Assembly (NCBI GenBank): GCA_965203275.1 | Contig: OZ241865.1 | Coordinates: 1,888,001 to 1,952,000 of the forward strand | Direction of reading: 5' to 3' | DNA: 64,000 bases | Origin: Bdellovibrionales bacterium | Lineage (GTDB): Bacteria; Bdellovibrionota; Bdellovibrionia; Bdellovibrionales; JAUICD01 | Part shown: positions 945 to 58,253 of the stretch, piece after piece | Position numbering within the stretch: the first letter of the stretch is position 1 | Layout: the number at the start of each line of letters is the position of its first letter | Position numbers and translations under genes: made by a program | The notes under the pieces: model-generated | Told to the model about the DNA's origin: nothing | The model's database searches: none | What the model saw: the letters and a program-made list of their open reading frames with translations, nothing else

Positions 945-982
945 TCACTAAAAGTAGCCAGAGGCTAGACCACTTTTAGTGA
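945..982. repeat. Internally deleted copy of the structured 3WJ element
   Basis: tcactaaaagtagccagaggctagaccacttttagtga keeps the P1 ends and the AGA-loop hairpin. Confidence 0.75.
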
Positions 983-1114
983 AAGAGAGGTGTGGTTCAT
1001 TTCAAGTGCAAAAGACGGCATGATTTATTTTGAGTGAAATGTTATAGCCTCAGAATATCTATCTGTTTTGCCATGTCATCATTTTTTCCAGTAACAGTAA
1101 CAGAAGTAACCGAT

Positions 1115-1366
1115 TCAGTTAGCTACAGAAATACGAAGATGTTTTTTATTCATTCGTTCAAATAAGACAATACCAGGTGATTTTGCAAAAATGGTGTGAT
1201 CCCTGCCAAGTCCGACATTTCTTCCAGGGTGAAATTGAGTCCCTCTTTGACGAACAATAATCATCCCTGGTTTAACCTTCTGCCCGCCAAATATCTTAAC
1301 ACCTAGCCTCTGACTATGGCTATCTCGTCCGTTTTTGGTACTTCCACCTGCTTTTTTTGATGCCAT
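1115..1366 (-). CDS. rpmA: 50S ribosomal protein L27
   Basis: [16 protein letters not shown]...RLGVK...RQRGT. Confidence 0.98.
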
Positions 1367-1378
1367 ATTATATCCTTT

Positions 1379-1720
1379 TTAAGGTGTGATAATTTGATTG
1401 ATCTCAAGCTCTGTAAATGCTTGTCTGTGGCCTTTGAGTCTTCTATGTCTTTTCCTACGTTGTTTTTTGAAGACTAAAATCTTTTTATCCTTACCATGCC
1501 TCCTTACTGTGACCTCTACCTTTGCATGTTGCACAAAAGGATCTCCAAAAAGAGGATTATCGCCTCCAATAGCTAGAACTTCTGTGATTTCAAATTGACT
1601 CCCAGGAGTTTTGTCGATTTTAGCAACCCGCAAATGTTGACCAGGACTGACATGGTACTGCTTACCACCAGATTGGATGATTGCTTTTATAAGAGGTTTT
1701 TGAGAAACTTCAGTTGGCAT
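1379..1720 (-). CDS. rplU: 50S ribosomal protein L21
   Basis: AIIQSGGKQY...KGHRQ, upstream of rpmA. Confidence 0.97.
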   Translation of the reverse strand: MPTEVSQKPLIKAIIQSGGKQYHVSPGQHLRVAKIDKTPGSQFEITEVLAIGGDNPLFGDPFVQHAKVEVTVRRHGKDKKILVFKKQRRKRHRRLKGHRQAFTELEINQIITP

Positions 1721-1835
1721 TATAAAATTCCTTCTTTAAACTTTTAAAATAAATATATAATCAAAATAAGTCAAATATTTTTTTTACGCAAAATAAACAC
1801 ATAAATTAAACTCAGCATAGATTAGGAGAAATCTC

Positions 1836-2423
1836 ATGTGGCTTATTGTAGGTTTAGGCAATCCAGGTCAAAAGTATCAAAGAACCAGACATAACATAGG
1901 GTTTATGTTCCTTGATCATTGGAAAGACAAACTTCTACCTCAAGGGCAACAGGTTAGTAAAAAAGAAGCACAATCTCAAACATATCATGTCAAAATTAAA
2001 GGACAATCTGTTATTTTATGCCAACCTTTAACTTATATGAACCTTTCAGGGTTTGCAGTTCAACCTCTTATGCAATTTTATAAAATTCCTTTAACACATT
2101 TATTGGTCATCCATGATGAGATGGATTTGCCTTTTGGGAGCCTTAAATTTCATAAGAATAGAGGATCTGCCTCTCACAATGGAGTTCAACATATACACAA
2201 TCAGTTAGGAAGTAAAAATTATATGAGAGTAAGGGTTGGGATTGGCAAAGTACAAGCTACTATGGGGAAAGGACATGTCTTAAGTCATTTTTCTCAGGAA
2301 GAACAAAAGCACTTAACCGCTCTGATGGATTGGATGAGAGAAGGTATTGAAGGGCTTTTTGATAAAGGATTTGAAAAGGTAGCCAATGAGTACAATGGGG
2401 CTTTCTTAATGAATGCTACTTGA
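1836..2423 (+). CDS. pth: Peptidyl-tRNA hydrolase
   Basis: LIVGLGNPG, TRHNIGF, TYMNLSG, HDEMD, HNG motifs. Confidence 0.97.
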   Translation: MWLIVGLGNPGQKYQRTRHNIGFMFLDHWKDKLLPQGQQVSKKEAQSQTYHVKIKGQSVILCQPLTYMNLSGFAVQPLMQFYKIPLTHLLVIHDEMDLPFGSLKFHKNRGSASHNGVQHIHNQLGSKNYMRVRVGIGKVQATMGKGHVLSHFSQEEQKHLTALMDWMREGIEGLFDKGFEKVANEYNGAFLMNAT

Positions 2424-2455
2424 AAATCACCTTAAAATAAAAGTCATTTTAATAT

Positions 2456-2881
2456 TCAAGAGACAGCTTCTGGATTGTTAAAGCAAAGCAGAATAGGAAA
2501 ACGATTTGCATTCATATCATTTTGTATGGCATCTTCAGAGGAACAATAATTAAATAAATCTTGTTTATTAAATTCTTCTGGATCACAATTTGAAGGGTTT
2601 TTAGAACACATTTTAATTAGAAAATCTGCGTCATAGCTCGCTTCTTGTCCATCAGATAAAGCGAAAGTAAATTCTTCTGTGGCTTCTAGCCCTCTTTCAA
2701 CATATTCTTGGCAAAAATAAGTGATAAAAGAGACATCTAAGGCAATGCAATCTACAGGATTAGATGAAGATGAATCGTTGAGTGATGCAAGTTCCTCTGG
2801 AGATTTCATTGTGATACAGTTCTGTCCTAGAATTAATAAACAAAACAATAATAAAGCACATGTAAAATATCTGTAAACCAT
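2456..2881 (-). CDS. Cys-rich hypothetical lipoprotein
   Basis: Hydrophobic N-terminus ending GQNC, multiple Cys. Confidence 0.6.
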   Translation of the reverse strand: MVYRYFTCALLLFCLLILGQNCITMKSPEELASLNDSSSSNPVDCIALDVSFITYFCQEYVERGLEATEEFTFALSDGQEASYDADFLIKMCSKNPSNCDPEEFNKQDLFNYCSSEDAIQNDMNANRFPILLCFNNPEAVS

Positions 2882-3040
2882 AATTCTTTATCGGCTTGAA
2901 AGTGTAATGACTTTATATTTGATTTAGGATGTTTTAATAAATAATACTCTAAATTCTAATAATTTATGGTTATAATGCATTTATAATGCTTTAAAAAGGC
3001 TATTTTGGGTTATTTTGACTTTCAGTTAGATCAATTTCAT

Positions 3041-3069
3041 CCGGGATCCGGGATCCGGGATCCGGGATC
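3041..3069 (+). repeat. Heptamer run (CCGGGAT)x4
   Basis: ccgggatccgggatccgggatccgggatc. Degenerate versions near 7141, 7238, 17447, 17931, 26476 and 54860. Confidence 0.9.
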
Positions 3070-3084
3070 AGAAGGGAACTTTTT

Positions 3085-3653
3085 CCTTAACATGGGGTTA
3101 AAAGACGAAGATATCCTCCTTACTAAAAGTAAACGGACTTTTGAGACATTGCTCTTTTTAGACAGCGTAAGCTGTCAGAGCAATGTCCAAAAGTGACCAG
3201 AGGTCAGTTTACTTTTAGTGAGACAAACCCTTAACATGGGGTTAAAAGACGAAGATATCCTCCCTACTAAAAGTAAACGGACTTTTGAGACATTGCTCTT
3301 TTTAGACAGCGTAAGCTGTCAGAGCAATGTCCAAAAGTGACCAGAGGTCAGTTTACTTTTAGTGAGACAAACCCTTAACATGGAGTTAAAAGACGAAGAT
3401 ATCCTCCTTACTAAAAGTAAACGGACTTTTGAGACATTGCTCTTTTTAGACAGCGTAAGCTGTCAGAGCAATGTCCAAAAGTGACCAGAGGTCAGTTTAC
3501 TTTTAGTGAGACAAACCCTTAACATGTAGTTAAGAGATGAGGAGATCCTCCCTACTAAAAGTAAACGGACTTTTGAGACATTGCTCTTTTTAGACAGCGT
3601 AAGCTGTCAGAGCAATGTCCAAAAGCAACCAGAGGTTGGTTTACTTTTAGTGA
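3085..3653 (+). repeat. Tandem array of four 144-bp units (leader plus structured 3WJ element)
   Basis: actaaaagtaaac at 3122, 3266, 3410 and 3554. Each unit has nested inverted repeats. Confidence 0.95.
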
Positions 3654-3660
3654 AAATGAC

Positions 3661-3941
3661 GAAGATCATCGAAATTAGATAATAAAAGGTCCGAAAATAG
3701 AAGGCCCAAATGTAATAATATCTACAACAAAGAATATATATAGAGTGTTATGCAGTGCATTTCTGACCGATCGCCTCAAAATTGACCTTCCCTTTCTCTG
3801 AAAAAAGCTTGACCTGGTGGATTTACAAAGTGAAGTAATGATAGATTCAAGGAAAGGAAATTTTGAGGGAAACAACTCACGTATTTCTAAAAAAGGTACG
3901 TATGGGTAACCGAAGATCATCGAAGTTAGATAATAAAAGGT
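3661..3941. repeat. ~250-280 bp dispersed repeat with ~30-bp terminal direct repeats, copy 1
   Basis: gaagatcatcgaaRttagataataaaaggt at 3661 and 3912. Homologous to 7441-7690 and partly to 25004-25140. Confidence 0.85.
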
Positions 3942-3943
3942 AC

Positions 3944-5203
3944 TTACTTAGGAAAAAGCCCTCTTTGTGACATAGCTTTTTGAAAGCGTTCAAGAGCAAG
4001 GGCTATGGCAGCCTCTCTTAAGGAATATTGCCTTTCTTGAGCATGTACCCATGTTCTGTTAAAAGCAGATGAGATAATAAACTTAAGTCTTTCATTAATT
4101 TGTCTGATAGTCCAAAAATAAGAAGCAATGCCTTGAACCCACTCAAAGTAAGACACAATCACACCCCCTCCATTAGCTAAAATATCAGGTATAACCTCAA
4201 TCCCTTTCTCTTTTAATATCATATCAGCATCTTGAGTGATAGGTCCATTGGCTCCTTCAATAATAATCTTAGCTTGCACTCCTGTAGCATTGTCTTTATG
4301 AATGACTCTGTCCAATGCAGCTAACAATAGAGCATCACATTTCAGTTTTAAAAGCTCCTCATTTGAAATAGATTCTCCATGAGTAAAGCCTGATAAGGTT
4401 TTATTTTTTTGGTAGTATTCTATCAGTTGAGGAACATTTAAACCACCTTTATTGTAAACACCTCCATAGACATCACTGACTGCAATCACTTGCATTTCTC
4501 TTTCAAAAGCTGATAGAGCTGCATGGCTACCAACATTTCCAAATCCTTGAATAGCCAGTTGACAACCGCTAGGATTTATTTGTAGCTTTTGGTACATTTC
4601 TTTCAAGCAGTAAATTGTTCCTAAGCCTGTAGCACTTGTTCTTCCAAGTGAACCGCCAATCTCAATAGGTTTGCCAGTCACTACTCCAGGGATAGAAAAT
4701 CCCTCACGTTGAGAGTATGTATCCATAATCCAAGCCATGATCTGTTCGTTTGTTCCCACATCAGGTGCAGGGATATCTCTCTCAGGTCCTATGAACCTAT
4801 GTAGCTCTGTGGCGTATCTTCTTGTCAAAGTTTGCAGTTCAACAGGAGAAAGCTTATTGGGGTCTACAGCAATACCTCCCTTAGATCCACCTAGTGGAAG
4901 GCATAAAAGAGCATTCTTTAATGACATCAACATTGCAAGAGCTGCCACTTCACTGAGAGTCACAGAAGGATGAAAACGAATACCTCCCTTACAAGGTCCT
5001 AGGGTGTAGTTATGCTGCACACGGTAACCATCAAAAACAACCACTTGGTCATTATCCATGCGTACAGGGACACTAACAATAATAGACCTTTTGGGTTTTA
5101 AAATGCGAACCAAAATATTCTCGTCAATGTCTATTTGACCAGCAACACCACGTAAAACTTTGGTGATATTTTTATAAAGAGGACCTTCAATTATGCTTTT
5201 CAT
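3944..5203 (-). CDS. gdhA: Glu/Leu/Phe/Val (glutamate) dehydrogenase
   Basis: GPCKGGIRFHP, GGSKGG, DIPAPDVGT, QGFGNVG, EGANGP. Confidence 0.95.
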   Translation of the reverse strand: MKSIIEGPLYKNITKVLRGVAGQIDIDENILVRILKPKRSIIVSVPVRMDNDQVVVFDGYRVQHNYTLGPCKGGIRFHPSVTLSEVAALAMLMSLKNALLCLPLGGSKGGIAVDPNKLSPVELQTLTRRYATELHRFIGPERDIPAPDVGTNEQIMAWIMDTYSQREGFSIPGVVTGKPIEIGGSLGRTSATGLGTIYCLKEMYQKLQINPSGCQLAIQGFGNVGSHAALSAFEREMQVIAVSDVYGGVYNKGGLNVPQLIEYYQKNKTLSGFTHGESISNEELLKLKCDALLLAALDRVIHKDNATGVQAKIIIEGANGPITQDADMILKEKGIEVIPDILANGGGVIVSYFEWVQGIASYFWTIRQINERLKFIISSAFNRTWVHAQERQYSLREAAIALALERFQKAMSQRGLFPK

Positions 5204-5487
5204 TTTATATTTAATCCTATTATGATTAATAGTACCTGATATTTGTATGTGATGGCAACACGAATGGTAAAAATTTCAAAAAAATTGTAATATTTTCATA
5301 GTTGAATAAGAAAAACATAATTGATTTTCTAAAAAAGTTCTTCTTCAAAAGCCTTCTTTAAAGATACTCCTGTAAAAATAAACACAATATTTTAAAAAAT
5401 GGCATTCTTGTTGCAACTTTTAATAAAATATTAATAACATAATTGTTTACTGCTAAGGCCAAAGCCTAAAGATAAAAGGAGCTATAT

Positions 5488-6423
5488 ATGCATATTATTA
5501 TAAAGTACAGTTTAGTTTTTGTTTTTTTATGTATTCCTCAAATAGGCATATCTCAAATGCAAACCTCTCATGTTATGCAAGCTGAGGAATCTTTTGACGA
5601 TTTTTTTTACAGGATATTAGACCCTATTGTGCAAAGTCGTTATAGAGGTCAATATAGATTATCTAAATTATTTCTTATAAATAGTTCAAAAGATATTCAC
5701 CAGGGCTTAACTCACCAGGGCATACAAGCATCACTAAACAATCGCAATGTTGCTTTGCATTATACTTTGGTTCATAAGAAGGGGTGGGATGTACCCAAGC
5801 ATATACCCAGAGCTTTAAACCACGTTTGTGACTTACATACCTATAATAATGAACAAACAGATTATTTAGAAATATCATTAGATAACTGTTCTGATCTTCC
5901 TCAAAATGTCAATGGGGATTTAGGAGATTGGATGGGCTTATTTAGAGACTATCGTCGTCAACAAGTTGTGGCCAATGGCCTTATACCTTTGACTTATATC
6001 TTTGTAGAAATTTTAAACAGAGGTGATACCGAAGAAAAAATTCATGTATTTAGAAAGAACTTTATTTCAACAGAAGATCAAGGCAAGTTAAAGACAGCTA
6101 TAGAAAATGGAAGACTTATCTTTAAAAATGACACCCTTGAATTGCTGGTGATAGCACTTGAATATAAAGAATACGAGATAGCTAAAATACTTGTTGAAGC
6201 TCTTATAGAAACAAATATTGATATACAAAATTATGAAATAGGATCTTCATTAGCTCGTTATTTATCCTATCCTGCACATTTAACTTTGTTAGATCTGATT
6301 CAGATCTATTTGTTTGATTATTATACTTATATAGATGATGTTGATTTTGAATATCAAAAATCTCTATTAGAGTCAGCTATTTACGACCTGCTCTATATGC
6401 GGAGATTGCTGACAGGCCAGTAA
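5488..6423 (+). CDS. Hypothetical secreted protein
   Basis: RBS aaggag, signal-peptide-like N-terminus, 311 aa. Confidence 0.7.
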   Translation: MHIIIKYSLVFVFLCIPQIGISQMQTSHVMQAEESFDDFFYRILDPIVQSRYRGQYRLSKLFLINSSKDIHQGLTHQGIQASLNNRNVALHYTLVHKKGWDVPKHIPRALNHVCDLHTYNNEQTDYLEISLDNCSDLPQNVNGDLGDWMGLFRDYRRQQVVANGLIPLTYIFVEILNRGDTEEKIHVFRKNFISTEDQGKLKTAIENGRLIFKNDTLELLVIALEYKEYEIAKILVEALIETNIDIQNYEIGSSLARYLSYPAHLTLLDLIQIYLFDYYTYIDDVDFEYQKSLLESAIYDLLYMRRLLTGQ

Positions 6424-6432
6424 TTATAATGT

Positions 6433-7089
6433 TTGGAGGTGTTTATGAAATTTTTTAAAATAATTTTTATCATTTGTTTGATGAATGCTTTTTTGAGTAT
6501 TCATGCTAAGGGACAAAGTCTAAGTGGAATGGAAGCAACTAAGAGACTAAGAGCTTTGTTGATCCCTATAAAAAACAAAATTTATGCCCAAAGTCCGATG
6601 GAGTGGAATCATTATACTTCTTTGATTTGCCTTAGTGACCCCAACCCCATTGGAGTCCTAAACACAACTTTTTATTCATATAGTTTTGATAGGGAGTCTT
6701 GTTTTTGGACTTCAGGCCAAGTACTTACATATTATAAGGCGGATAGCTTTTATATAAAAACTCAAGGAGATAATCCAAAGGTCGATGCTCTTAATAGCAA
6801 TTCTCAATTCTATGGGTATTCTTTTAGAGATTTTAAAGATAACAATAAAAAATGGATTGAAGAATTAGCTACTCAGCTTATAGTTCATAAATTATGGTAC
6901 GGTTCTTTTCAACATGTTGCTCAAGAGCAATCCAAAGAGTTTTATTATGATCATGATCCAAAGGAACTTGGCAGAGAGTGTAGAGATATTTCTGACCATT
7001 TTGAAATCAATCCAGATACTTCTTCAGATATAGAAAGTATTTCTATTTGTCTGACATTACAGCCAGTGGGACAGCCTATTCGTCGATAA
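6433..7089 (+). CDS. Hypothetical secreted protein (probable start at ATG 6445)
   Basis: ggagg RBS before MKFFKIIFII signal peptide. Confidence 0.7.
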   Translation: MEVFMKFFKIIFIICLMNAFLSIHAKGQSLSGMEATKRLRALLIPIKNKIYAQSPMEWNHYTSLICLSDPNPIGVLNTTFYSYSFDRESCFWTSGQVLTYYKADSFYIKTQGDNPKVDALNSNSQFYGYSFRDFKDNNKKWIEELATQLIVHKLWYGSFQHVAQEQSKEFYYDHDPKELGRECRDISDHFEINPDTSSDIESISICLTLQPVGQPIRR

Positions 7090-7140
7090 TAGTTGTTAAT
7101 GGTGGTCTACCTTCTTTTTCTTCCTTTACAGGGTGTTTCT

Positions 7141-7434
7141 CCGGGATCTTAGATCCGGCAACCCGGCATCAGATCCCGGGATGCCTGCTTGCTGGATCCC
7201 GGGAGCGAATGTCTTGTTTCCTTAACATCATATTTATCTGGGATCTGGGATCTGGCAACCCGGCATCAAAAGGAAAAGGTGTAAGAAGGAACTGTTTCCT
7301 TAACATTGTGTAAAAAAACGAAGGGATCCTCTCTACTAAAAGTGGTCAAGCTTTCTAGGTTGCCAGCATTTGAGAAGGCGGTAGCCTTCGGCTGGCAACC
7401 AGAAAGTGACCAGAGGTCAGACCACTTTTAGTGA
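7141..7434 (+). repeat. Mosaic cluster: heptamer runs plus structured 3WJ element (7298-7434)
   Basis: GATCCGG-like runs, ccttaacat leader, actaaaagtggtc...gaccacttttagtga. Confidence 0.9.
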
Positions 7435-7440
7435 AAAAAA

Positions 7441-7690
7441 TTAGATAATAAAAGGTCCATAATGATATATACAACAAAGAGTATATATATGGTGTTATGT
7501 AGTGAATCTCTAGCCGATCTCCTCAAAGTTGACCTTCCATTTCTCTGAAATAGGTTTGATCTGGTGGATTTACGAAGTGAGATAATAATAGATTCAAGGA
7601 AGGGAAACTTTGAGGGAATCAATGCACGTATCTCTGAAGAAGGTACGTATGGGTAACCGAAGATCATCGAAGTTAGATAATAAAAGGTCC
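7441..7690. repeat. ~250-bp dispersed repeat, copy 2
   Basis: Colinear similarity to 3661-3941, flanked by ttagataataaaaggtcc. Confidence 0.85.
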
Positions 7691-7697
7691 AAAATAA

Positions 7698-8417: not shown

Positions 8418-8449
8418 AACATAAACAAATTTAAAAGGAGTCACAGAAC

Positions 8450-17216: not shown

Positions 17217-17356
17217 CCTTAACATGGTGTTAAGAGACGAAGAGATCCTTTCTACTAAAAGTAAACGGACTTTTGAGATAGCCAGCCTTTGATCGACGGC
17301 GTGAGCCGTCGGGCTGGCTATCCAAAAGTAGCCAGAGGCTAGTTTACTTTTAGTGA
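17217..17356 (+). repeat. Structured 3WJ element
   Basis: gatagccagcc/ggctggctatc, cgacggc-gtga-gccgtcg, tagcc-aga-ggcta. Confidence 0.9.
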
Positions 17357-17606
17357 AACAAACTAGCTGAAATCACTGGATTTCTAATTTTCAAATACCT
17401 TTTTCCCCATCTTTTAGAAAAAATACAGAAATTACGAATATTTTATCCGGGATCTGGGATCCGGCAGTCGGGCAACCCGGCATCAAAAAGAAATTTTTCC
17501 TTAACATCGTGTTTATCCGGGATCAGAGTATTGGTTGTAATGAATTTTTGCATCTAAAAAATTTCCTCCCAAGCCCTGGCGGGTTTTCAGAAAGGAGGAA
17601 ATTTTT

Positions 17607-17912
17607 ATGACGATGCAAAAATTCAAAACTTATCAATTAGCTACTGAATTTTATTGTAATTCTAAAAAATTACATCTGAAAGAACCTCATAGAAGTCAAT
17701 TTCGAAGGGCTGTTTCAAGTATCGTGCTTAACTTAGCTGAAGGGTCCGCTAAACCTACAGCAAAAGATCGTAGGAAATTTTACTATATTAGCCTTGGCTC
17801 TCTAAGAGAGGTTCAGGCAATATTGGATCTAGAATTTGTTGGTTGTATGGAATTAGCAAAACAAGCGGATAAATTAGGAGCTTATTTATACAAATTATGT
17901 AAAAATACTTGA
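17607..17912 (+). CDS. Four-helix-bundle protein (23S rRNA intervening-sequence protein / Avd-like family)
   Basis: QFRRAVSSIVLNLAEG...RRKFYYISLGSLREV signature, aaggagg RBS. Confidence 0.9.
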   Translation: MTMQKFKTYQLATEFYCNSKKLHLKEPHRSQFRRAVSSIVLNLAEGSAKPTAKDRRKFYYISLGSLREVQAILDLEFVGCMELAKQADKLGAYLYKLCKNT

Positions 17913-17989
17913 AGTCAAATTTGACTTTTCCCGGGATCTGGGATCGGGCAACCCGGCAGACAGGCAAGAATGAAGCGAATATCTTGTTT

Positions 17990-18126
17990 CCTTAACATGG
18001 AGTTAAGAGACGATGAGATCCTTCCTACTAAAAGTAAACGGACTTTTGAGACATTGCTCTTTTTAGACAGCGATAGCTGTCAGAGCAATGCCCAAAAGCA
18101 ACCAGAGGTTGGTTTACTTTTAGTGA
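17990..18126 (+). repeat. Structured 3WJ element
   Basis: Same variant as the 3085-3653 units. Confidence 0.9.
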
Positions 18127-18521
18127 AATTGTTTCAGGGGTTGCAAGGAGTGAATAATCAAGATATAATATTATCAGCAGTTCAATATCATTTATCTTGT
18201 AGAAATCCAAAGATAGATTTGGGGTTTTTCAATAGATGTTTGAAATTAGCTTCAGATAAGGATAGTAAATTAGTCAAAGTAGAAGGAGGTAAGATGGGTG
18301 CATATATACCAATGGTTAAAAGAGGTTTATTAGAAGGTTTAGCAAAAGGTCGGCAGGAAGGTATCGCTGAGGGTCGGCAAGAAGGTATGGAAAAGGGTAT
18401 GGAAAAGGGTATGGAATTAGTTGCACACAATATGTTAAAAGAGAATATGAATATTGCTTTAATCTCTCAGGTGACAGGTTTATCTCAAGATCATATTTTA
18501 AAGCTAAAAAGTAAAACCTGA
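18127..18521 (+). pseudogene. C-terminal remnant of an Rpn/YhgA-like gene with an intact internal small ORF (18294-18521)
   Basis: GRQEG/GMEKG repeats, VAHNMLKENMNIALISQVTGLS, aaggaggt RBS before ATG 18294. Confidence 0.75.
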
Positions 18522-24779: not shown

Positions 24780-24997
24780 TCACTAAAAATAAACCAGCCT
24801 CTGGCATGTTTTTGGACAATCAGCCCGACGGCTCTCGCCGTCGATCAAAGGCTGATTGCCTCAAAAATCCGTTTATTTTTAGTAAGGAGGATCTCCTCTT
24901 TTCTTAACACCATGTTAAGGAAAAAATTCTTTCATCTGCTGTGCTGGCAACCTAGAAAGCTTGACCACTTTTAGTGAAACAGCCCACTTTTAGTGAA
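24780..24997 (-). repeat. Structured 3WJ element (24780-24920) plus fragments
   Basis: Reverse-complement copy with leader catgttaagg. Confidence 0.88.
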
Positions 24998-25755
24998 ACA
25001 AAGGCTTGACCTAGTGGATTTGCGAAGTTAGAGATAGAGCATTCAAGAAAAGGAAAATTTGAGCAAAACAATGCACGTATCTCTGAAAAAAATGTACAAA
25101 TAGATGAAGATAAACAAAATTAGATAATAGAAGGTCCGATGAATGAAACAAAAACACATAAGGAGCAATTATGTCTAAAAAATTCAAACATCTTAAAAAG
25201 AACAAAAAAGGTTTTAAGCGTGATGTCTTGCATTTATTTGACCATCTATTTTATGAAGTTTACAGCAAAGAACAATATATTTTAGATTTGTTTCGTTTAG
25301 TTTTAACTTCAGAGGAATTTGAACTTTTTGATTGGAGTACCTTGCAATCCAGAGTGACTGTTTTTATAGATAAGGCTTTTAGAGAGCGTCGGGCTGATGT
25401 GATTTTTTCTGTTAAACTGAAAACAGGGCAGATGGTTGAGATTATCTTCCTTTTTGAGCATAAGTCTTATAACGATCCTAGTGTTTTTATTCAGATGCTC
25501 AATTACCAAGCTAATATTTATGAGAAGGACAGCAGGCAGGGTAAAAATAAAGTGCCTTCTTTGGTAATTCCTGTATTGGTTTATTCTGGTAAGGAGCCTT
25601 GGAAGATGCCATTGAGTTTCCATGGATATTTGAATTTTCCATCACTAAAAGTGCAGGCAGCTTTTAAAGAGAATATTCTCAATTACAAATATCGCTTGCT
25701 CAATCTACATGATTTAGGTATAGAGATATTAAAATCTAAGAGCTTGATTTTTGTT

Positions 25756-26087
25756 TCACTCAAAATAAACTGGCTTCTAGCCACTTTTGGGTAGCCAGCC
25801 CGACGGCTACCGCCGTCGATCAAAGGCTGGCTACCTCAAAAGCTTGTTTATTTTGAGTAGAGAAGGATCCTTTTATTCCTTTACACCATGTTAAGGAAAA
25901 AGTCCTTTTATTGCCTTAAGAGCAAGTAGCTTGCAAATGAAACATTTTTGCCTTAACATCATGTTAAGAGACGAAGGGATCCTTCCTACTAAAAGTGGTC
26001 AATCTTTCTAGGTTGCCAGCATTTGAGAAGGCGAAAGCCTTCGGCTGGCAACCAGAAAGTAGCCAGAGGCTAGACCACTTTTAGTGA
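25756..26087. repeat. Back-to-back pair of structured 3WJ elements (25756-25896 minus, 25951-26087 plus)
   Basis: Two different stem variants with leaders facing each other. Confidence 0.9.
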
Positions 26088-26172
26088 AAGAGACAAGATT
26101 TATGATCCTAGTTTTACCTTGGAAGTATTGCAAAAAATAGAAGAAAAACACATATCAAAGGAGGAAAGAACC

Positions 26173-26412
26173 ATGCCACCATTACAGATCACAAGAGAAA
26201 GACTATTACAAGAAGGGTTGCAAAAAGGTTTGCAAGAAGGGTTACAAAAAGGGCGACAGGAAGGGCGACAGGAAGGGCGACAGGAAGGAGAACAAAGTAT
26301 CATCTTAAAAATGCTTAAAAATAAGATGGATATTTCGACTATTGCAAAAATCACAGAGTCCACAGAGAACAAAATACGAGAAATACAGAAAAAACTAAAC
26401 AGCTTAAGCTAA
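26173..26412 (+). CDS. Internal small Rpn C-terminal ORF (RpnS-like)
   Basis: aaggagg RBS at ~26158, ATG 26173 in frame with the Rpn C-terminus. Confidence 0.65.
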   Translation: MPPLQITRERLLQEGLQKGLQEGLQKGRQEGRQEGRQEGEQSIILKMLKNKMDISTIAKITESTENKIREIQKKLNSLS

Positions 26413-26523
26413 ATATTATTATTTGTTGAACAATCTGCAAAATCTTTCACTTAAAGCTAAATTTGATTTTTTCAAGGATCTGGGATCCGGCAACCCGGCA
26501 GACAGGAGGTGAAATAAAAACCT

Positions 26524-26770
26524 GGTGTTAAAAGACAAAAGGATGATCCCTAACCCCACCCGCCACCCTTCGATTCTGCTTTTCCATTTTGTTTTTACTT
26601 GAGGATGAGGGCAGAGGGAGCCTTCCGAAGTCCTCAATTGAGCTTGCTTTTAAGGAGCAAGCTCAATTTGCGGAAGATCTCCAGTCTCCCTCTGCCCCCA
26701 TCCTCCTCTTAATTACTTTTTTTTGAGAGTTACGCAGAATCTAAAAGAAAATAAAAAAACAAAAAGAAAC
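26524..26770 (+). repeat. Second structured element class (long multi-stem), copy 1
   Basis: Nested stems gattctgc/gcagaatc, gggcagagggag/ctccctctgccc, gagcttgct/agcaagctc. Homolog at 54915-55164. Confidence 0.8.
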
Positions 26771-26777
26771 TCTTTTT

Positions 26778-27036
26778 CCTTAACATGGAGTTAAGAGACG
26801 AGAAGATCCTCCCCTACTCAAAATGAGCGGATTTTTTAGGTGTTGCCTATTTTGTCAAAGGCGAAAGCCTTTGCAGGCAACATCAAAAAACACACCAGAG
26901 GTGTGGCTCATTTTGAGTGAAACAACTAACTCCTTACTAAAAGTGGTCAAGCTTTCTAGGTTGCCAGCATTTGAGAAGGCGAATAGCCTTCGGCTGGCAA
27001 CCAGAAAGTAGCCAGAGGCTAGACCACTTTTAGTGA
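26778..27036 (+). repeat. Two tandem structured 3WJ elements (26778-26920, 26931-27036)
   Basis: actcaaaatgagc/gctcattttgagt and actaaaagtggtc/gaccacttttagt variants. Confidence 0.9.
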
Positions 27037-27040
27037 AAAA

Positions 27041-27134
27041 GATAGGCTTTGACCATTGTCTCTTGAGCTTGTAAGCCAATAGTTTGCCTTGATGTTGATA
27101 CTCGATAATAAGCTACATATTGTTTGATATTCAA
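27041..27134 (-). pseudogene. 5' remnant of the serine recombinase, truncated at the structured element
   Basis: Near-identical to 14595-14688. Confidence 0.85.
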
Positions 27135-51611: not shown

Positions 51612-51989
51612 TCAGGGCCTTTTTTTATTTTTAGTATGTTCTTTTTTCACGTCTTTGCCTTTATTGATTAAAAGCTCGTATAATGTGTCGAACTTCCTAT
51701 CAAACTTGTCTTCTATGGCTTTGAACTTTCGATCAAACTTCTCGTCCATGGCTTTGATCTGTGTGGGTATATGATTGTATACTTGCTCTTGAATAGGCTT
51801 AATTGTAGCAGTCAGTAGATCTCTTAAGTTATTTTCTAGTTGGTTTATTCGCTCATTTAATCTGTTTTCTGATTGAACTGTCTTTTTCACCGCCCTATCA
51901 TAAAGAAAAAAGCCAATAATAGATATAGCTATGATTGTTGGTAGGTCTAAAGCTTCAACTATCTTTAAAACAAATTCATAGAAACCCAT
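51612..51989 (-). CDS. Family B, copy 3
   Basis: One 11-aa unit shorter. Confidence 0.85.
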   Translation of the reverse strand: MGFYEFVLKIVEALDLPTIIAISIIGFFLYDRAVKKTVQSENRLNERINQLENNLRDLLTATIKPIQEQVYNHIPTQIKAMDEKFDRKFKAIEDKFDRKFDTLYELLINKGKDVKKEHTKNKKRP

Positions 51990-52122
51990 AATGTTCTCCT
52001 TAGTTATAAGTTATACCATTGCCTTATCTTAGTCAATTTAAAAAACATTTAAAAAGTACGTAATACTACAACATGATCTAAAGCCTGTCTAGCAAAAAAC
52101 ACCGGGAACATATTATGTATCG

Positions 52123-52500
52123 TCAGGGCCTTTCTTTATTTTTAGTATGTTCTTTTTTCACGTCTTTGCCTTTATTGAGTAAAAGCTCGTATAATGTGTC
52201 GAACTTCCGATCAAATTTCTCTTCCAGGGCTTTGATCTGTGTGGGTATATGATTGTATACTTGTTCTTGAATAGGCTTAATTGTAGCAGTCAGTAGATCC
52301 TTCAAGTTATTTTCCAGTTGGTTTATCCGTTCATTTAATCTATTTTCTGATTGGTTTATCCGTTCATTTAATTTATTTTCTGATCGAATTATCCTTTTCA
52401 CCGCCCTATCATAAAGAAAAAAGCCAATAATAGATATAGCTATGATTGTTGGTAGGTCTAAAGCTTCAACTATCTTTAAAACAAATTCATAGAAACCCAT
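52123..52500 (-). CDS. Family B, copy 4
   Basis: Duplicated SENRLNERINQ unit. Confidence 0.85.
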   Translation of the reverse strand: MGFYEFVLKIVEALDLPTIIAISIIGFFLYDRAVKRIIRSENKLNERINQSENRLNERINQLENNLKDLLTATIKPIQEQVYNHIPTQIKALEEKFDRKFDTLYELLLNKGKDVKKEHTKNKERP

Positions 52501-52677
52501 AATGTTCTCCTTAGTTAGGAGTTATACCATCGCCTTATCTTAGTCAATTTAAAAAACATTTAAAAAGTACATAATACTACAACATGATCTAAAGCCTGTC
52601 TAGCAAAAAACACCGGGAACATATTATGTATCGTTAAGGTTTAGTCTGACTTTAATCAAAATTTTATAGGGTTAGTT

Positions 52678-52728
52678 TTATTCTGTAGCTCCGTCCTTTA
52701 GCAATAGATTTACAATCTCTGTATGTCT
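52678..52728 (-). pseudogene. 3' remnant of an ankyrin gene (...EIVNLLLKDGATE*)
   Basis: ttattctgtagctcc matches the 3' ends of the ankyrin paralogs. Confidence 0.7.
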
Positions 52729-52980
52729 TTTTCACTAACTCTTATTCTATTCAAGCAGTCTTGAACATCAGTATCATAAAGTCGACTACGTATTACTTTA
52801 TTATAAAACAACTTTAAAGTCAAGTTTTTTGTATAGTAAAGGAATATTAACCAGTTTTTGATTCTTAGTCATAATCCACTGATCGTCATACATGTTTCTA
52901 CCTCCAATTAAAAACTTCACATCCTTATAACCACAACACTTAAAAGACCAATAATGCTTACGAGTATTAATAACTCTAAC

Positions 52981-53012
52981 AAAAAAAGCCCTCGTGACGA
53001 TGAGGGCTTTTT
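52981..53012. terminator. Intrinsic (possibly bidirectional) terminator downstream of atpA
   Basis: aaaaaaagccctc-gtgacgat-gagggcttttt. Confidence 0.75.
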
Positions 53013-53102
53013 GGTTTGTAAAAGAAAAAGTTTCTTCATCAATGCTGGTAATCTAGTGTTGTTACATGGCAAGCTTCAGAGAAGCTTGCTGTCTGGCCAC
53101 TT

Positions 53103-54620
53103 TTAGTGAGAATCTTTGTTGAAAATAGCTTTGAATTCATCGAGTGCTTTTTTCAGTTGATCTGTGATTTCATCCGTCAGCTTTTTCCCCTCTCGGATAG
53201 CAGGTAAAATATCTGAATGCTTTTGTTTCAAAAAATCTAAAACTTCTGTTTGGTATTTTGAAATTTGATCATTAGAAATATCGTCCATATAACCATTGGT
53301 GCCGGCAAAAATGATAGCTATTTGATCTTCCACTTTCCAAGGCGTATACTGCCCTTGTTTGAGCATTTCTACTAACTTTTGACCTCGATTCAGTTGTGCT
53401 TGTGTCGCCTTATCTAAATCAGAACCAAATGTGGCAAAAGCCTCTAACTCCCTAAATTGAGCAAGACCTAATTTAAGAGTCCCTGCCACTTGTTTCATGG
53501 CTTTAATCTGTGCATTACCTCCCACACGAGAGACAGAGACACCTACATTGACAGCAGGTCTCACACCTTTATAAAACAAATCAGATTCTAAAAAGATTTG
53601 CCCATCTGTGATAGATATCACATTAGTAGGGATATAAGCAGAAATATCATTGGCTTGTGTTTCTATAATAGGTAAGGCTGTCAATGAACCTCCACCTTCT
53701 TCATCACTCATTTTTGCAGCTCTCTCTAAAAGTCGTGAATGCAAATAAAATACATCCCCAGGATAAGCTTCCCGTCCAGGAGGCCTCCTTAAAAGCAAGG
53801 ACATTTGCCTATAAGCTTGTGCTTGTTTTGTCAGATCATCATAAATAATGAGAGCATGCATGCCATGATCTCTAAACCACTCACCTATAGCACAGCCAGA
53901 GTAAGCAGACAAAAACTGCAAAGGAGCAGGCTGAGAAGCATTAGCAGAAACCACTACTGTATATTCTAAAGCTCCTGCTGCTTTAAGTTTTTCAACCACT
54001 TGAGCTACTGTAGATTGTTTCTGCCCTATGGCAACATAAACACAAAAAACATCCTGTCCTTTTTGATTAATGATCGTATCTATAGCCACAGCTGTTTTAC
54101 CTGTCTGCCGATCACCAATAATAAGCTCCCTTTGTCCTCGGCCAATAGGAATCATAGCATCAATAGCTTTAATCCCTGTCTGGAGAGGTTGGCTTACTGG
54201 TTGCCTTTTGACAATACCAGGAGCTTTTAACTCAACTAAACGTGTTTGGTCAGAATGTATAACTCCTAAGTTATCTAATGGCTTTCCAAGGGCATCCACT
54301 ACACGGCCACAAAGAGCTTCCCCTACAGGGATTTGCACAATTTTCCCTGTGCGTTTTACAAGGTCACCCTCTTTAATATGAAAGTCATCACCAAAGATCA
54401 CAACCCCAACAGAGTTAGTCTCTAAGTTCAATGCCATCCCAGGCACATCACCTGGAAATTCAATGATTTCCCCTGCCATAACACCATCTAATCCATAAAC
54501 TCTGGCAACTCCATCACCTACAGATAAGACAACACCTGTCTCAGTTACCTCCAATTGAGTGGAATAATTTTCAATTTGTTTTTTTAAAATTTGAGTGATT
54601 TCATCTGCTTGAATTTTCAT
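53103..54620 (-). CDS. atpA: ATP synthase F1 alpha subunit
   Basis: [31 protein letters not shown]. Confidence 0.99.
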
Positions 54621-54664
54621 AGTTTGGGCCTCTTATTGTCTAATTTCGTTGATCTTCGTTTGTT

Positions 54665-55164
54665 TCACTAAAAGTAAACTAGCCTCTGTTTCACTAAAAG
54701 TAAACTGACCTCTGGTCACTTTTGGGCGATGACCACGACGACTGTCGTCGTCGATAAAATGGTCATCACCTCAAAAGTCCGTTTACTTTTAGTAAGGAGG
54801 ATATCTTCGTTTTCTAACATCATGTTAAGGAAACAAGACTTTCACTTTATCCCTGCCTGTCTGATGCCGGGTTGCCGGATCCCGGATCCCGGATAAACAG
54901 CATGTTAAGGAAAAAAGTTCCTTTTTTTGTTTTTTTTATTCTCTTTTAGATTCTGCATAATTTTCAAAAAAGCATGAATATTATGAGTGAAATGCGAAGG
55001 CAGGCTGGAGATCTTCCGCAGACCCGCTTGCTCCCAAAAAGCAAGCGAAGGTTGAGGACTTCGGAAGCCTGCCTTCGCATTTCATTCATAAAAACAAAAT
55101 AGAAAAAGCAGAATCAAAGGGCAGGGGGTGGGGCTAGGGAAGATCCCTTCGCCTCTTAACACCA
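54665..55164 (-). repeat. Mosaic cluster between atpH and atpA: 3WJ element (54691-54830), heptamers, second-class element (54915-55164)
   Basis: Reverse-complement homologs of the elements at 26476-27036. Confidence 0.88.
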
Positions 55165-55177
55165 TCTCCTGCCACAC

Positions 55178-55780
55178 TTATGTTACAACGTCAATGTTAT
55201 TTATAAGCTGATCTTTGAGTAAATGTAACTGGCCAGCAGCTGTTCCGTCAAATAAAAAGCCTCCTACTTTCACTAAAACACCACCTAAAACTGATGGACG
55301 TTCGCAATATTCAAAATGCACAGTTTTGTTTAATTTTTGTGTTGCAAATCTTTCAATAATTTGCTTTTCCTCTGGTGTCAAATGTTGATCAGAAAACACC
55401 TCCCCCTTTATAACACCCCGATCTTCATTATGTCTATATTGAAAAGCCATAATAATTTCTAAAATTAAGTGTATTCTGTTTTTATAAATTAAAAATTTTA
55501 AAAAAGAAAGCAACCTATGATTTTTTTGAGATATTTTTTCTGAAGAACTATTGGGATAGAGTATACTTTGAAGTAAATTTATTTTTTGCTCAGTATTTAA
55601 TAAGGGGCCAGATAAAAGAGAGAGCATATTTTGTGGGGAAGGAGAATCTTGTATGGGTTGCTTTAAAACTTCAGAAAGCATCTCAAAATCTTTTAAAATA
55701 ACATCTATTTGATTTTGACTTGCAAGTAAATCATAAAAAGCATCTGCATATCTTTGAGCAACTTCTGAAGGATAAATCAT
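55178..55780 (-). CDS. atpH: ATP synthase delta subunit
   Basis: VAQRYADA...VLGGVLVKVG..LFDGT, operon position. Confidence 0.9.
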   Translation of the reverse strand: MIYPSEVAQRYADAFYDLLASQNQIDVILKDFEMLSEVLKQPIQDSPSPQNMLSLLSGPLLNTEQKINLLQSILYPNSSSEKISQKNHRLLSFLKFLIYKNRIHLILEIIMAFQYRHNEDRGVIKGEVFSDQHLTPEEKQIIERFATQKLNKTVHFEYCERPSVLGGVLVKVGGFLFDGTAAGQLHLLKDQLINNIDVVT

Positions 55781-56337
55781 TTTAAAGAAACCTCTAGAGT
55801 TTTGATAAAGTGGTGTCTGTCTTCAGAGGTCATAGTTTTTGAAATTTTAGTTTGCACCTGAAGTATGATTTTTTCTGCAAATTCTGCAATTAATTGCCTT
55901 TTAGCTTTTTTATGTTCTAAATCTAGTAAAGATAAAGCTTCGTTTTGGATGCGAGTAGCTTCTATATCAGCTTCTTTAAGCATTTGATCTTTTGTGGCAA
56001 GGGCTTCTTTTTGGGCTTTAGCAATTTGTTCCTGAGATGTTGTGGTGATCTCTTGCAACTTTTGGGTATAGTCCTTGTGGGCAACTTCCATATCCTCTCG
56101 TTCTTTCTGAGCAGCTTGAAACTGCTCTTGGAAACGATCAAATCGGCTTTTATAAAAAGCCCTGATTTTATCTTTCAGAAGATAAAATAATAATCCAACA
56201 AATAAAGAAAAATTTAAAAATTGGTAAAAAACAACTTTTGGTACTCCTTCATGACTATCTGTGGCCCCTAATGCCTGACTGATTCCTAAAAAACTCATAA
56301 ATAAAATATATTTTGTAAGAAATTTTATTCTTTGCAT
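55777..56337 (-). CDS. atpF: ATP synthase subunit b
   Basis: QFLNF TM helix plus coiled coil, upstream of atpH. Confidence 0.85.
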   Translation of the reverse strand: MQRIKFLTKYILFMSFLGISQALGATDSHEGVPKVVFYQFLNFSLFVGLLFYLLKDKIRAFYKSRFDRFQEQFQAAQKEREDMEVAHKDYTQKLQEITTTSQEQIAKAQKEALATKDQMLKEADIEATRIQNEALSLLDLEHKKAKRQLIAEFAEKIILQVQTKISKTMTSEDRHHFIKTLEVSLK

Positions 56338-56561
56338 TTTTACTTTCCCTTAATCTTTTGTTGAAAAATGAAAATGTATCTACTACATCTATCCCTTTTA
56401 AAGCTACCCCTTTTGAAGCCTTATTATATTTTTTAACACAATGGTTTCAAAAACTTCAAATTTTAAAAGCTAGTGGATTCATTTGCTAGCTTATTTTGCA
56501 GTGTCGTCACAGCAAGTCTTATCTATTTTGACTTGATTCCATCACTTTATTTAACTTAAAG

Positions 56562-57014
56562 TCACACTCGTCCTAATATTTTATTAGTAGCCATTTCAAC
56601 TAATTCAGGTGTGTGTTTTTCTAATTCTTTTTGGGCAATTATTTGTTCTTGATTTTTTCGCTTTCTTGTTTGGTCTATTGTTCTTTGAGCTTCTTTCTGA
56701 GCATTTAAGATTTTTCTATGATACTCTTGGCTAGTTTCACTTTTGATTTTTGTAAAAATATCATGAATTTGTGTGTGAAGATTGCGGAGTTTGGTTTCAT
56801 AGTCATTTTTTAATTTTGCAATAGTAGCTAGTTTTTGAGCTTTGTCTTCCTCATCTCCTAAAGTCAAATGTTCCCTTTGTCTATAAGCATCAAAAAGAGG
56901 TTTGAACAAAAGAGGATGCAGGATGACATACAAGGCTAAAAAGATAGCCATTTGAAGGAAAAGTGTATGATCAATACCTAATTTTGTAAATATCTCCATA
57001 AATGAACCCCTCAC
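56562..57014 (-). CDS. ATP synthase subunit b'
   Basis: DHTLFLQMAIF...LFKPL...RE, ends KILGR. Confidence 0.85.
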   Translation of the reverse strand: MRGSFMEIFTKLGIDHTLFLQMAIFLALYVILHPLLFKPLFDAYRQREHLTLGDEEDKAQKLATIAKLKNDYETKLRNLHTQIHDIFTKIKSETSQEYHRKILNAQKEAQRTIDQTRKRKNQEQIIAQKELEKHTPELVEMATNKILGRV

Positions 57015-57346
57015 TTATTTGGTTATTTTCCGTATCATTTCTAAAATAAAACACCTAGAATAGAAAATCAATGAGAATGTTCTATCAAAAGCTTTTCTTA
57101 AATGTAGCTATATTAATAGACTCAAATTTGGTAAATTTTAAGTTTTTAAAGGAACTTTTTCCCTTTGCCATCACATTTGTAGGGTTTTTCTTTAAATTTC
57201 AATAGGTTGTGTTACATTTAAAGCCTCTTAAAAAAATATTGCAAAAAAGACTTGATATGTTATAATATTTTGATAAGTATACTTATAGTGTTATTTATAA
57301 AAATATATAAACAATTTAATCTAAATAAAAAAGGGGTTTTTAAAAA

Positions 57347-57751
57347 ATGGATGTCAATAAAATACTCACAGAGATCAATCAAAAGATTACTCAAAGTTTA
57401 GAGAATCAAAAAGAAATTCAAAAAAAACAAACTGAAATGGAAACAAGACTTACCATTCAAGAGAGTACCACCCAAAAAACTAACGAATTAATTCACCAAT
57501 TATCTGAAGATCAAATAACTCAGAAAAAAGCTACTCAACAAACTAATGAATTGATTCATCAATTATCTGAAGACCAAATAACTCAGAAAAAAGCCACTCA
57601 ACAAGCTACTCAACAAACTAATGAATTGATTCACCAATTATCTGAAGACCAAATAACTCAGAAAAAAGCCACTCAACAAACCCATGAGCTAGTGTTGGCC
57701 ATAAAAAAAAACTGGATTATACAGGCTCTGACAGGCCAAAAAGAAAGTTAA
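57347..57751 (+). CDS. Coiled-coil protein with three 21-aa repeats
   Basis: TQQTNELIHQLSEDQITQKKA x3. Confidence 0.75.
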   Translation: MDVNKILTEINQKITQSLENQKEIQKKQTEMETRLTIQESTTQKTNELIHQLSEDQITQKKATQQTNELIHQLSEDQITQKKATQQATQQTNELIHQLSEDQITQKKATQQTHELVLAIKKNWIIQALTGQKES

Positions 57752-57821
57752 TCAGGGTCATTTGTTGGCTATTTATCTTGTTTTTTAGACTATTTCTGTA
57801 TTTAATCAAACCTTTTCACTT

Positions 57822-58253
57822 TCACTCAAAATGAGTTGTTTCACTAAAAGTAAACCAACCTCTGGTTGCTTTTGGGCGATGACCACGACGACTGTCGTCG
57901 TCGATAAAATGGTCATCACCTCAAAAGTCCGTTTACTTTTAGTAAGGAGGATCCCTTCATTTTTTAACACAATGTTAAGGAAACAAGATATGTTTCTAAA
58001 ATGTTTTTAGGGAGCATGCGAGTTGCGATAAAGGAACTTTTTCCCTAACATCATGTAAAGAGACGAGAGGATTCTTCCTACTAAAAATAAACGGATTTTT
58101 GAGGCAATCAGCCTTTGATCGACGGCGAGAGCCGTCGGGCTGATTGCCCAAAAACAGCCAGAGGCTGGTTTATTTTTAGTGAAAAAGATAAGAAGGCGAA
58201 TAGCCTTCGGCTGGCAACCTAAAAGTGACCAGAGGTCAGTTTACTTTTAGTGA
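57822..58253. repeat. Back-to-back structured 3WJ elements (57841-57980 minus, 58043-58182 plus) plus fragments
   Basis: Same architecture as 25756-26087. Confidence 0.9.

What the first reader, a model, noticed from the sequence alone, without database searches (positions are those of the whole stretch)
945..58253. Dispersed ~100-nt three-way-junction element with extensive compensatory covariation
Seen: 15 full copies (four at 3085-3653; 7298, 17217, 17990, 24780-, 25756-, 25951, 26778, 26931, 54691-, 57841-, 58043) plus fragments. All fold the same way while the stems differ. P1 (13 bp): actaaaagtaaac/gtttacttttagt, actaaaagtggtc/gaccacttttagt, actcaaaatgagc/gctcattttgagt. P2 runs 6 bp, A bulge, 10-11 bp (gacattgctct, ggttgccagc, gatagccagcc, ggcaatcagcc, ggtgatgacca, each with its complement), a T-rich bulge, then 6-7 bp closed by a G..A loop (GTAA, GAAA, GTGA, GAGA, GGTA, GATA, GACA, once GAATA). 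P3 is 5-6 bp with an invariant AGA loop (tgacc/ggtca, caacc/ggttg, tagcc/ggcta, cacacc/ggtgtg). G-T wobbles and G..A loops favour one strand. Nearly all copies follow a leader ccttaacatNNNgttaagagacgaNNNatcct. Inference: selection acts on structure, not sequence, so this is a folded RNA or ssDNA mobile unit (REP/RPE-like, or a new ncRNA class). I do not recognise it as a named family.
Basis: partly seen in the sequence, partly recalled or inferred. Interest (0 to 1): 0.9.

Follow-up and report, generated by a model that had tools for sequence, protein, structure and literature searches.

The report
Abundant three-armed single-stranded DNA repeat
A 140-base non-coding unit that keeps one three-armed hairpin fold while its sequence varies makes up about 6% of this uncultured bacterium's genome; it behaves like a selfish DNA repeat that lands without target duplications, its copying enzyme is unknown, and a family of poorly understood nucleases is the best suspect.

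Summary
Confirmed. All 15 copies fold as described. The genome holds 758 parsed cores, 470 distinct, 714 with the same three-way junction, 5.7% of its DNA. Covariation is strong: 31 of 41 pairs change on both sides. No Rfam match. The fold looks like DNA, not RNA: C(GNNA)G loops with a free third base, few G-T pairs, no bias to the transcribed strand. Insertions lack general target duplications, usually replace some target, carry short inherited flanks, nest into older copies (18 of 24 flank pairs match, shuffle 9.4) and turn their 3' end to the host. No Y1/RAYT, IS110 or reverse transcriptase was found in this genome. Best reading: a non-autonomous repeat acting as folded single-stranded DNA, copied in by break-primed template switching and shuffled by recombination. 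Best suspect for the break: Rpn/YhgA nucleases (39 of 43 loci touch a copy; two other Rpn-rich relatives carry their own hairpin families), but pilin and four-helix-bundle genes are also enriched, so this is unproven. Restricted to 3 of 101 order genomes. The scan reported this family before in other windows of this genome; the Rpn lead was not among those notes.

The parts
947..1035 (+). Internally deleted copy (P1 + P3 only) followed by two stacked 3' heads of other alleles
   Evidence: sequence; nhmmer hit
3085..3220 (+). Full copy 1 of a 4-unit tandem array (leader 3085, core 3122-3219, GTG end); heptamer repeats just upstream
3229..3364 (+). Full copy 2 of the array
3373..3508 (+). Full copy 3 of the array
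3517..3652 (+). Full copy 4 of the array (different P3 allele)
7298..7433 (+). Full copy, behind heptamer repeats and a lone leader
17217..17355 (+). Full copy between two diverged copies of an ~85-bp repeated module
17446..17524 (+). Degenerate 7-8-mer array plus a lone leader, upstream arm of the four-helix-bundle cassette
17607..17912 (+). Four-helix-bundle (23S rRNA IVP, PF05635) gene; one of 14 in the genome, read here as cargo or target of the repeat
17990..18125 (+). Full copy; its 3' end is joined to the 3' part of an Rpn gene
18126..18521 (+). 3' remnant of an Rpn/YhgA-like gene (C-terminal four-residue repeats)
24781..24920 (-). Full copy with 3'-truncated pieces upstream (24925-24998)
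25171..25750 (+). 5' part of an Rpn/YhgA-like gene (PF04754), cut by the divergent pair of copies
25757..25896 (-). Full copy, left member of a divergent pair (3' end outward)
25951..26086 (+). Full copy, right member of the divergent pair (3' end outward)
26090..26412 (+). 3' part of an Rpn gene resuming after the pair
26778..26919 (+). Full copy
26931..27035 (+). Leaderless full core joined to the tail of the previous copy (GAATA loop)
54659..54830 (-). Full copy (54692-54830) plus stacked 3' head, between atpH and atpA, sense to the operon
57842..57980 (-). Full copy, left member of a divergent pair
58043..58181 (+). Full copy, right member of the pair
58190..58252 (+). 5'-truncated copy starting in the T-rich P2 bulge, joined to the tail of the previous copy

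Best explanation
A non-autonomous selfish repeat that works as a folded single strand of DNA (the strand written here as +). Shown: the unit is TTT-leader-spacer-three-way junction-GTG-short A-rich tail; it is under constraint for the fold; new copies sit without a general target duplication, usually in place of 0-45 bp of target, with 10-25 nt of A/G-rich flank before the leader and 6-9 nt of tail; copies land inside older copies at a few loop and bulge positions; the 3' end faces host DNA and is often hard against a gene or tRNA boundary; helices are swapped between alleles. Inferred: the folded strand is recognised or simply exposed at forks, a nuclease acting in trans leaves a 3'-OH at or near it, and host polymerase copies the unit into another break by template switching on a few bases of microhomology; free 3' ends also rejoin nearby, giving stacked heads, adjacent deletions and tandem arrays; homologous recombination among ~1300 pieces shuffles modules and can carry upstream cargo. 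The enzyme is not identified; Rpn/YhgA-like PD-(D/E)XK nucleases are the leading candidate (about 1 in 3 within this explanation).
For: Fold and covariation. DNA-type features: tetraloops GAAA 235, GGTA 96, GATA 85, GTAA 61, GAGA 58, GACA 47, GTGA 45, all closed by C-G; among 23 stem-loop alleles seen 3+ times the third base is A 10, T 7, G 3, C 3; d(cGNNAg) is a known stable DNA tetraloop class (PMC10085684, passages and reference title); only about 21 G-T cells of 1428; in co-directional gene pairs 38 clusters are sense and 31 antisense. One strand favoured: top strand folds better in 126 (DNA) and 132 (RNA) of 143 distinct cores (a subset). Junctions: 10 of 122 solo copies score 40+ for a direct flank repeat (null 3.9%) and those are tandem modules; of 165 junction types 122 delete 10-44 bp, 24 delete 0-9, 19 overlap (many blurred by recombination); nesting 18 of 24, shuffle mean 9.4, max 17 of 2000; cluster ends 3'/3' outward 77 against 5'/5' 3; 3' ends lie a median 82 bp (lower quartile 15) from stops against 206 for 5' ends; 4 tRNA 3' ends and 3 tRNA starts abut a 3' end among 38 ARAGORN calls. 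37 groups of identical dispersed full copies. Rpn: 39 of 43 loci within 300 bp of a copy, 7 genes split; 16 of 18 intact genes against 259 of 1005 ordinary genes and 2 of 9 for each of two IS families; catalytic D and E conserved in 18 of 18; Rpn in only 8 of 101 order genomes, including all three with the repeat; RpnA leaves primable 3'-OH ends and a template-switch model was proposed (PMC5350276, abstract and passages); rpn regions move without TIRs or TSDs, with variable ends and tandem duplications (PMC10400941, passages).
Against: No enzyme shown to act on the unit; no polymorphic empty allele was seen, so empty sites are paralogues, not ancestors. Pilin (24 of 33), ankyrin/repeat (81 of 164) and four-helix-bundle genes (14 of 14) are also enriched next to copies, so closeness to Rpn may reflect cargo or tolerated sites, and splitting a toxic nuclease gene can be selected for itself. 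G003 has 20 Rpn hits and no copy. E. coli RpnA is non-specific and showed no preference for a cruciform; Zhong et al. think Rpn proteins are unlikely to be transposases. In G022 hairpin repeats were no denser beside Rpn genes than in random windows. GNRA loops are still the majority (403 of 631 G..A tetraloops), so RNA is not excluded.
Confidence: 0.55

Rival explanations
1. An HUH (Y1/Y2) dependent element, like IS200/IS605 ends, REP/BIME or IS91 one-ended transposition: the junction is the right or ori end, the leader the left or ter end, and the transposase is lost, missing from the assembly or too divergent to detect.
For: Single-strand fold with DNA-type loops; cleavage-like geometry (about 8 nt after the hairpin foot, 12-26 nt before the leader); fixed 3' end with variable 5' cargo; some insertions are exact (deletion 0 in 6 junction types); no TSD; genome is 90% complete.
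Against: No PF01797 or RAYT match in G000; the single Y1 in G001 is an ordinary IS200-type gene with its own ends and no copy nearby; PF04986 found nothing but its controls were silent too; no shared target motif at host junctions; most junctions carry deletions.
Confidence: 0.2
2. A short retroelement (SINE-like RNA): the folded top-strand RNA is reverse transcribed from its A-rich 3' tail at chromosomal breaks, with template jumps.
For: Fixed 3' end with A-rich tail, 5'-truncated pieces, deletions and added bases at the 5' junction; Avd-like four-helix-bundle genes co-occur; G001 has three RT hits.
Against: No PF00078 candidate and no strict RT motif in G000; G001's RTs are group II intron-like or retron-like by sequence (my reading); many truncated pieces are halves of interrupted copies, not aborted cDNAs; no adenine-specific mutation (A 2.2, C 6.2, G 4.2, T 1.6 per 1000); GNYA loops and scarce wobble.
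Confidence: 0.13
3. A host-maintained functional RNA or DNA structure (mRNA stabiliser, terminator, nucleoid-protein site) spread only by recombination and palindrome self-correction, with no dedicated mobility.
For: Some copies lie within operons (atpH-atpA); arm-to-arm copying can produce two-sided changes without selection.
Against: No sense bias; restricted to one small clade; disrupts genes and itself; self-correction would erase the bulged A (kept in 668 of 696) and the T-rich bulge; novel junctions need non-homologous joining.
Confidence: 0.07
4. A MITE moved by a resident DDE transposase (IS256, IS1634-like, DDE_Tnp_1).
For: Such transposases are multi-copy in the genome; a weak TGTTTC/GAAACA inverted motif brackets some copies.
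Against: The two ends do not covary (AAACAA tail with TGTTT 50 of 207, with TTTT 83 of 422); no general TSD; IS copies are not near the repeat (2 of 9 each).
Confidence: 0.05

Closest known systems
REP / BIME / REPIN repeats with RAYT (GTAG and CGTC families; PMC3733652, passages and start of abstract seen)
   Same: Abundant intergenic palindromes, clusters and dimers, acting as folded ssDNA, non-autonomous.
   Different: 140 nt three-way junction rather than 20-40 bp hairpins; no 5' GTAG/CGTC foot; no RAYT gene; deletions and inherited flanks at junctions.
IS200/IS605 ends and PATEs; IS91/ISCR one-ended transposition (recalled, no call)
   Same: Strand-specific hairpins, no TSD, fixed end on one side with 5' cargo.
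   Different: No Y1 gene found, no conserved target tetranucleotide, imprecise junctions.
Neisseria dRS3/RS intergenic mosaics, Rickettsia RPE, Wolbachia WPE, Yersinia YPAL (named in PMC3733652 passages; properties recalled)
   Same: Structured repeats expanded in host-associated genomes; a short palindromic leader heading several unrelated bodies; clusters beside pilin genes.
   Different: Unrelated sequence and fold; not inserted in frame in proteins; no TSD as in YPAL.
Rpn/YhgA-like loci (PMC5350276, PMC10400941; abstracts and passages seen)
   Same: Mobility without TIRs or TSDs, variable ends, tandem duplications, proposed primer-template switching.
   Different: Those papers describe no structured cis element (0 hits for palindrom or hairpin in PMC10400941, 0 for hairpin in PMC5350276).

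Membership tests
REP/REPIN-RAYT | 20-40 bp palindrome with GTAG or CGTC foot at one end | tested here: not met
   Core is about 100 nt; bases before P1 vary (CTAC, TTAC, TTCC); GTAG appears only on the other strand, 3' of the stem
REP/REPIN-RAYT | RAYT gene in the genome flanked by the repeat | tested here: not met
   PF01797 and NF047646: 0 in G000; NF047646 0 in G001; genome 90% complete
IS200/IS605 non-autonomous ends | Y1 TnpA with matching ends; exact insertion after a fixed 4-5 nt target | tested here: not met
   No Y1 in G000; no shared target motif, mostly deletions
IS91/ISCR | Y2 transposase; GAAC/CAAG target kept at the ori end | tested here: inconclusive
   PF04986 silent also in controls; the GAAAC-like tail is not present in paralogous empty sites
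MITE (DDE) | 15-30 bp terminal inverted repeats and a target duplication | tested here: not met
Integron attC | R''-L''-L'-R' boxes and an integron integrase with cassette arrays | tested here: not met
   Only an Xer-like and a 187-aa tyrosine recombinase, neither beside copies; no sense relation to genes
Retroelement (retron, DGR, group II, retrozyme) | Reverse transcriptase gene in the host | tested here: not met
   0 PF00078 candidates in G000; motif scan
Retroelement (retron, DGR, group II, retrozyme) | RNA intermediate or self-cleavage | not testable with these tools
   No RNA holder listed
Rfam ncRNA family | Match at gathering score | tested here: not met
   0 matches in the window; only sub-threshold hairpin families at 25700-27100
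Rpn-mobilised element (proposed) | Rpn cleaves or moves the folded unit | not testable with these tools
   Only association data

The most novel reading that the evidence does not exclude
The repeat is the cis-acting partner of Rpn/YhgA-like nucleases: a folded ssDNA three-way junction directs or attracts Rpn nicking, the 3'-OH primes template-switch copying, and the same process carries rpn, pilin, ankyrin and four-helix-bundle genes around the genome. Unrelated hairpin families in other Rpn-rich relatives (G003, G022) would be independent inventions of the same partnership: transposition without a transposase.
Probability: 0.2. Interest if true: 0.88.

Novelty: new variant of a known kind. 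Interest (0 to 1): 0.62.

Why it matters
It is an unusually elaborate, very abundant and naturally mutagenised ssDNA structure (hundreds of alleles define which pairs, bulges and loops matter) in a genome with none of the enzymes known to move such repeats. It gives a concrete substrate for two open questions: how palindromic repeats spread in host-associated bacteria that lack RAYT, and how rpn genes move without terminal repeats or target duplications. It also seems to drive gene breakage and gene-family expansion in this lineage.

Tried and rejected
Rfam at gathering score and by E-value: nothing. Family searches in five genomes for Y1 (12), RT (13), Y2 (58, controls silent), IS110 (59), tyrosine recombinase (60, 62), DinB (61), RAYT (88), AEP primase (89), TnpB zinc ribbon (91, only a 1365-aa frame): no partner; the whole proteome was not scanned. 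Replication-strand bias: GC skew too flat to place origin and terminus. Adenine-specific DGR-type mutation: absent. Four-helix-bundle gene as the mover: it matches at genome level (14, 19, 19, 0, 0), but 0 of the G004 gene copies shown (12 loci fetched) had the repeat within 900 bp, so I treat it as a separate heptamer cassette. G004 copies lie only on small contigs C1, C4, C11; whether these are foreign was inconclusive. Sequencing runs: no RNA holder listed; contigs of four runs showed no clean empty allele. Control for hairpin repeats in 100 kb each of G007, G011, G024: 0, but G003 also gave 0, so the test is weak. Parsers caught only 247 and 162 of about 780 cores and one search had a bug; replace them. 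Literature searches found no description of this family or of an Rpn-repeat link; subscription papers and supplements were not seen.
Full report
Observation. A profile built from two window copies gave 1272 non-overlapping hits in the 2.57-Mb genome, 730 of them full length, covering 145,545 bp or 5.7%, in 532 clusters. Of 781 cores, 758 could be parsed; 470 are distinct and 714 have the shape of a three-way junction. Depth over the copies is tens of times the single-copy depth in three public runs. Rfam has no match.

Anatomy. 5' to 3' on the favoured strand: A/G-rich flank of 10-25 nt, TTT(T) or TGTTT, a leader starting CCTTAACAT, an A/G-rich spacer ending GATCC plus pyrimidines, P1 (13 bp), 2-3 unpaired bases, P2 with a bulged A (668 of 696 parsed), a T-rich bulge and a C(G..A)G loop, P3 with C(AGA)G, then GTG and a tail of about 6-9 nt of consensus AAACA(A/G). 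The leader pattern occurs 1407 times against 131 expected and also heads heptamer arrays, four-helix-bundle cassettes and a second structured family, so it is a module of its own; its hairpin is not conserved.

Covariation. On 35 sequences (13 from the window, 22 from relatives) 97.7% of cells pair, 31 of 41 pairs have two-sided changes, no shuffle of 500 reaches this, and slid partners pair at 35-50%. Because kin inflate such counts I also counted minimum steps between perfectly paired alleles seen six or more times in G000: 15 in P1, 3 in P2a, 20 in P2b, 7 in P2c, 6 in P3 (the parser mis-registered some P2 alleles). P1 arms match in 622 of 758 cores against 16.7% at random, although the helices between them are exchanged among alleles. 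Arm-to-arm copying could make two-sided changes without selection, but it would also erase the bulges, which are kept in all three genomes (inference).

DNA or RNA. The loop's third base is free (228 GNYA against 403 GNRA tetraloops, plus G..A pentaloops); d(cGNNAg) is a stable DNA class (PMC10085684, passages). G-T pairs are about 1.5% of cells, low for a structured RNA (recalled). Copies between co-directional genes are 38 sense and 31 antisense. The top strand folds better than its complement in 126 of 143 distinct cores with DNA energies (subset). I read this as folded single-stranded DNA; RNA is not excluded, and no RNA run was listed.

How copies sit. There is no general target duplication: 10 of 122 solo copies have a strong direct flank repeat, and these are tandem modules; one Rpn site shows an 11-bp repeat. 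Where both flanks map to a paralogue, most junction types delete target (122 of 165 by 10-44 bp, 24 by 0-9 bp, 19 overlap), though recombination among copies blurs many. Clean cases in the four-helix-bundle gene replace 4 and 29 bp. Host junctions share no target motif. Of 1351 3' ends, about half run into another piece of the element at a few positions, chiefly the AGA loop, the leader start and the bulges. Cluster ends face the host with the 3' end (77 clusters 3'/3', 3 clusters 5'/5'), and 3' ends crowd gene stops and tRNA ends. Divergent pairs in Rpn genes remove about 110 codons. In G001 tandem arrays repeat the element with 50-90 bp of local flank. All this fits a reactive 3' end joined by microhomology, with copying by template switching (inference).

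Distribution. A covariance model found the unit in 3 of 101 genomes of the order, G000, G001 and G004, the last only on small contigs (39 candidates scored per genome). Collection scans added only a related record titled Bdellovibrionales (14 of 17 loci) and chance hits.

Search for the enzyme. G000 has no Y1, RAYT, IS110, RT, DinB or AEP match; its two tyrosine recombinases are not near copies. The four-helix-bundle gene is followed by a same-strand leader in 14 of 14 G000 loci but is free of the repeat in the G004 loci examined, and earlier notes describe it as a widespread heptamer cassette; I treat it as cargo. Rpn/YhgA genes are expanded (57 hits in G000, 43 in G001), intact ones keep the catalytic D and E, and 39 of 43 loci touch a copy against 26% of ordinary genes and 2 of 9 for each IS family. 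Rpn is found in 8 of 101 order genomes. Two other Rpn-rich relatives carry different covarying hairpin families: G003, at least 10 copies with C(GNA)G loops, 2 of the 10 in or beside split Rpn genes, and G022, two families. Against: pilin and ankyrin genes are enriched too, G022's repeats are not denser near Rpn, the negative control was weak, host-associated genomes gather both repeats and Rpn for general reasons, RpnA is non-specific with no cruciform preference (PMC5350276, passages), and PMC10400941 (passages) argues Rpn are toxin-antitoxin defence proteins, not transposases. Yet the same papers report primable 3'-OH ends, a template-switch model, and movement without TIRs or TSDs with variable ends and tandem duplications, which matches the junctions seen here.

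Comparison and verdict. It works like a REP/BIME, RPE or dRS3-type selfish palindrome but fails membership of REP-RAYT, IS200/IS605 ends, MITEs, attC and retroelements on tested features. Searches found no published description. It is a new, unusually complex variant of a known kind, with an open and testable question about its mover. Interest 0.62.

Noticed in passing
window 26540-26720 and 54975-55145: A second structured repeat family with a conserved CGAAGTCCTC...GCGGAAGAT internal motif and variable stems; 47 full motifs in the genome, relatives in G001 and G004; often headed by the same leader.
   Followed up: partly
window 3044-3068, 7140-7270, 17446-17524, 17930-17965: Degenerate 7-8-mer arrays (GGGATCC/GGCAACC type), about 270 in the genome, polar and in direct orientation on both sides of four-helix-bundle genes here.
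   Followed up: partly
window 54621-55177: About 550 bp of stacked repeats lie between atpH and atpA inside the ATP synthase operon.
   Followed up: no
genome-wide: 33 type IV pilin-like genes, 24 with a copy within 300 bp, often with the 3' end just before the ribosome binding site; recalls silent pilin cassettes.
   Followed up: partly
window 3660-3950 and 7440-7690: A ~250-bp repeated module bounded by direct repeats, with a broken reading frame; about 21 copies.
   Followed up: no
window 17550-17610: A hairpin covers the ribosome binding site of the four-helix-bundle gene and is conserved with varying loops in G001 and G004.
   Followed up: no
G003 L027:2798-2915, L110-L112: Unrelated covarying branched hairpin family with C(GNA)G loops, at least 10 copies.
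   Followed up: partly
G022 L113, L124, L126, L129: Two further families of long palindromic repeats with covarying stems in an Rpn-rich genome of another family.
   Followed up: partly
L017:1282-3054 (G001): A 590-aa protein with an N-terminal extension and a retron-like RT domain, downstream of which lie a tRNA and a degenerate tRNA copy.
   Followed up: no
G000:C1:242285 and G001: A 1340-1365-aa frame with a TnpB-type zinc ribbon, probably the Cas12-type nuclease of earlier notes, in both genomes with the repeat and not in the other three.
   Followed up: no
window 1-420: An exact ~220-bp direct repeat at the start of the window overlapping a putative metallopeptidase gene.
   Followed up: no
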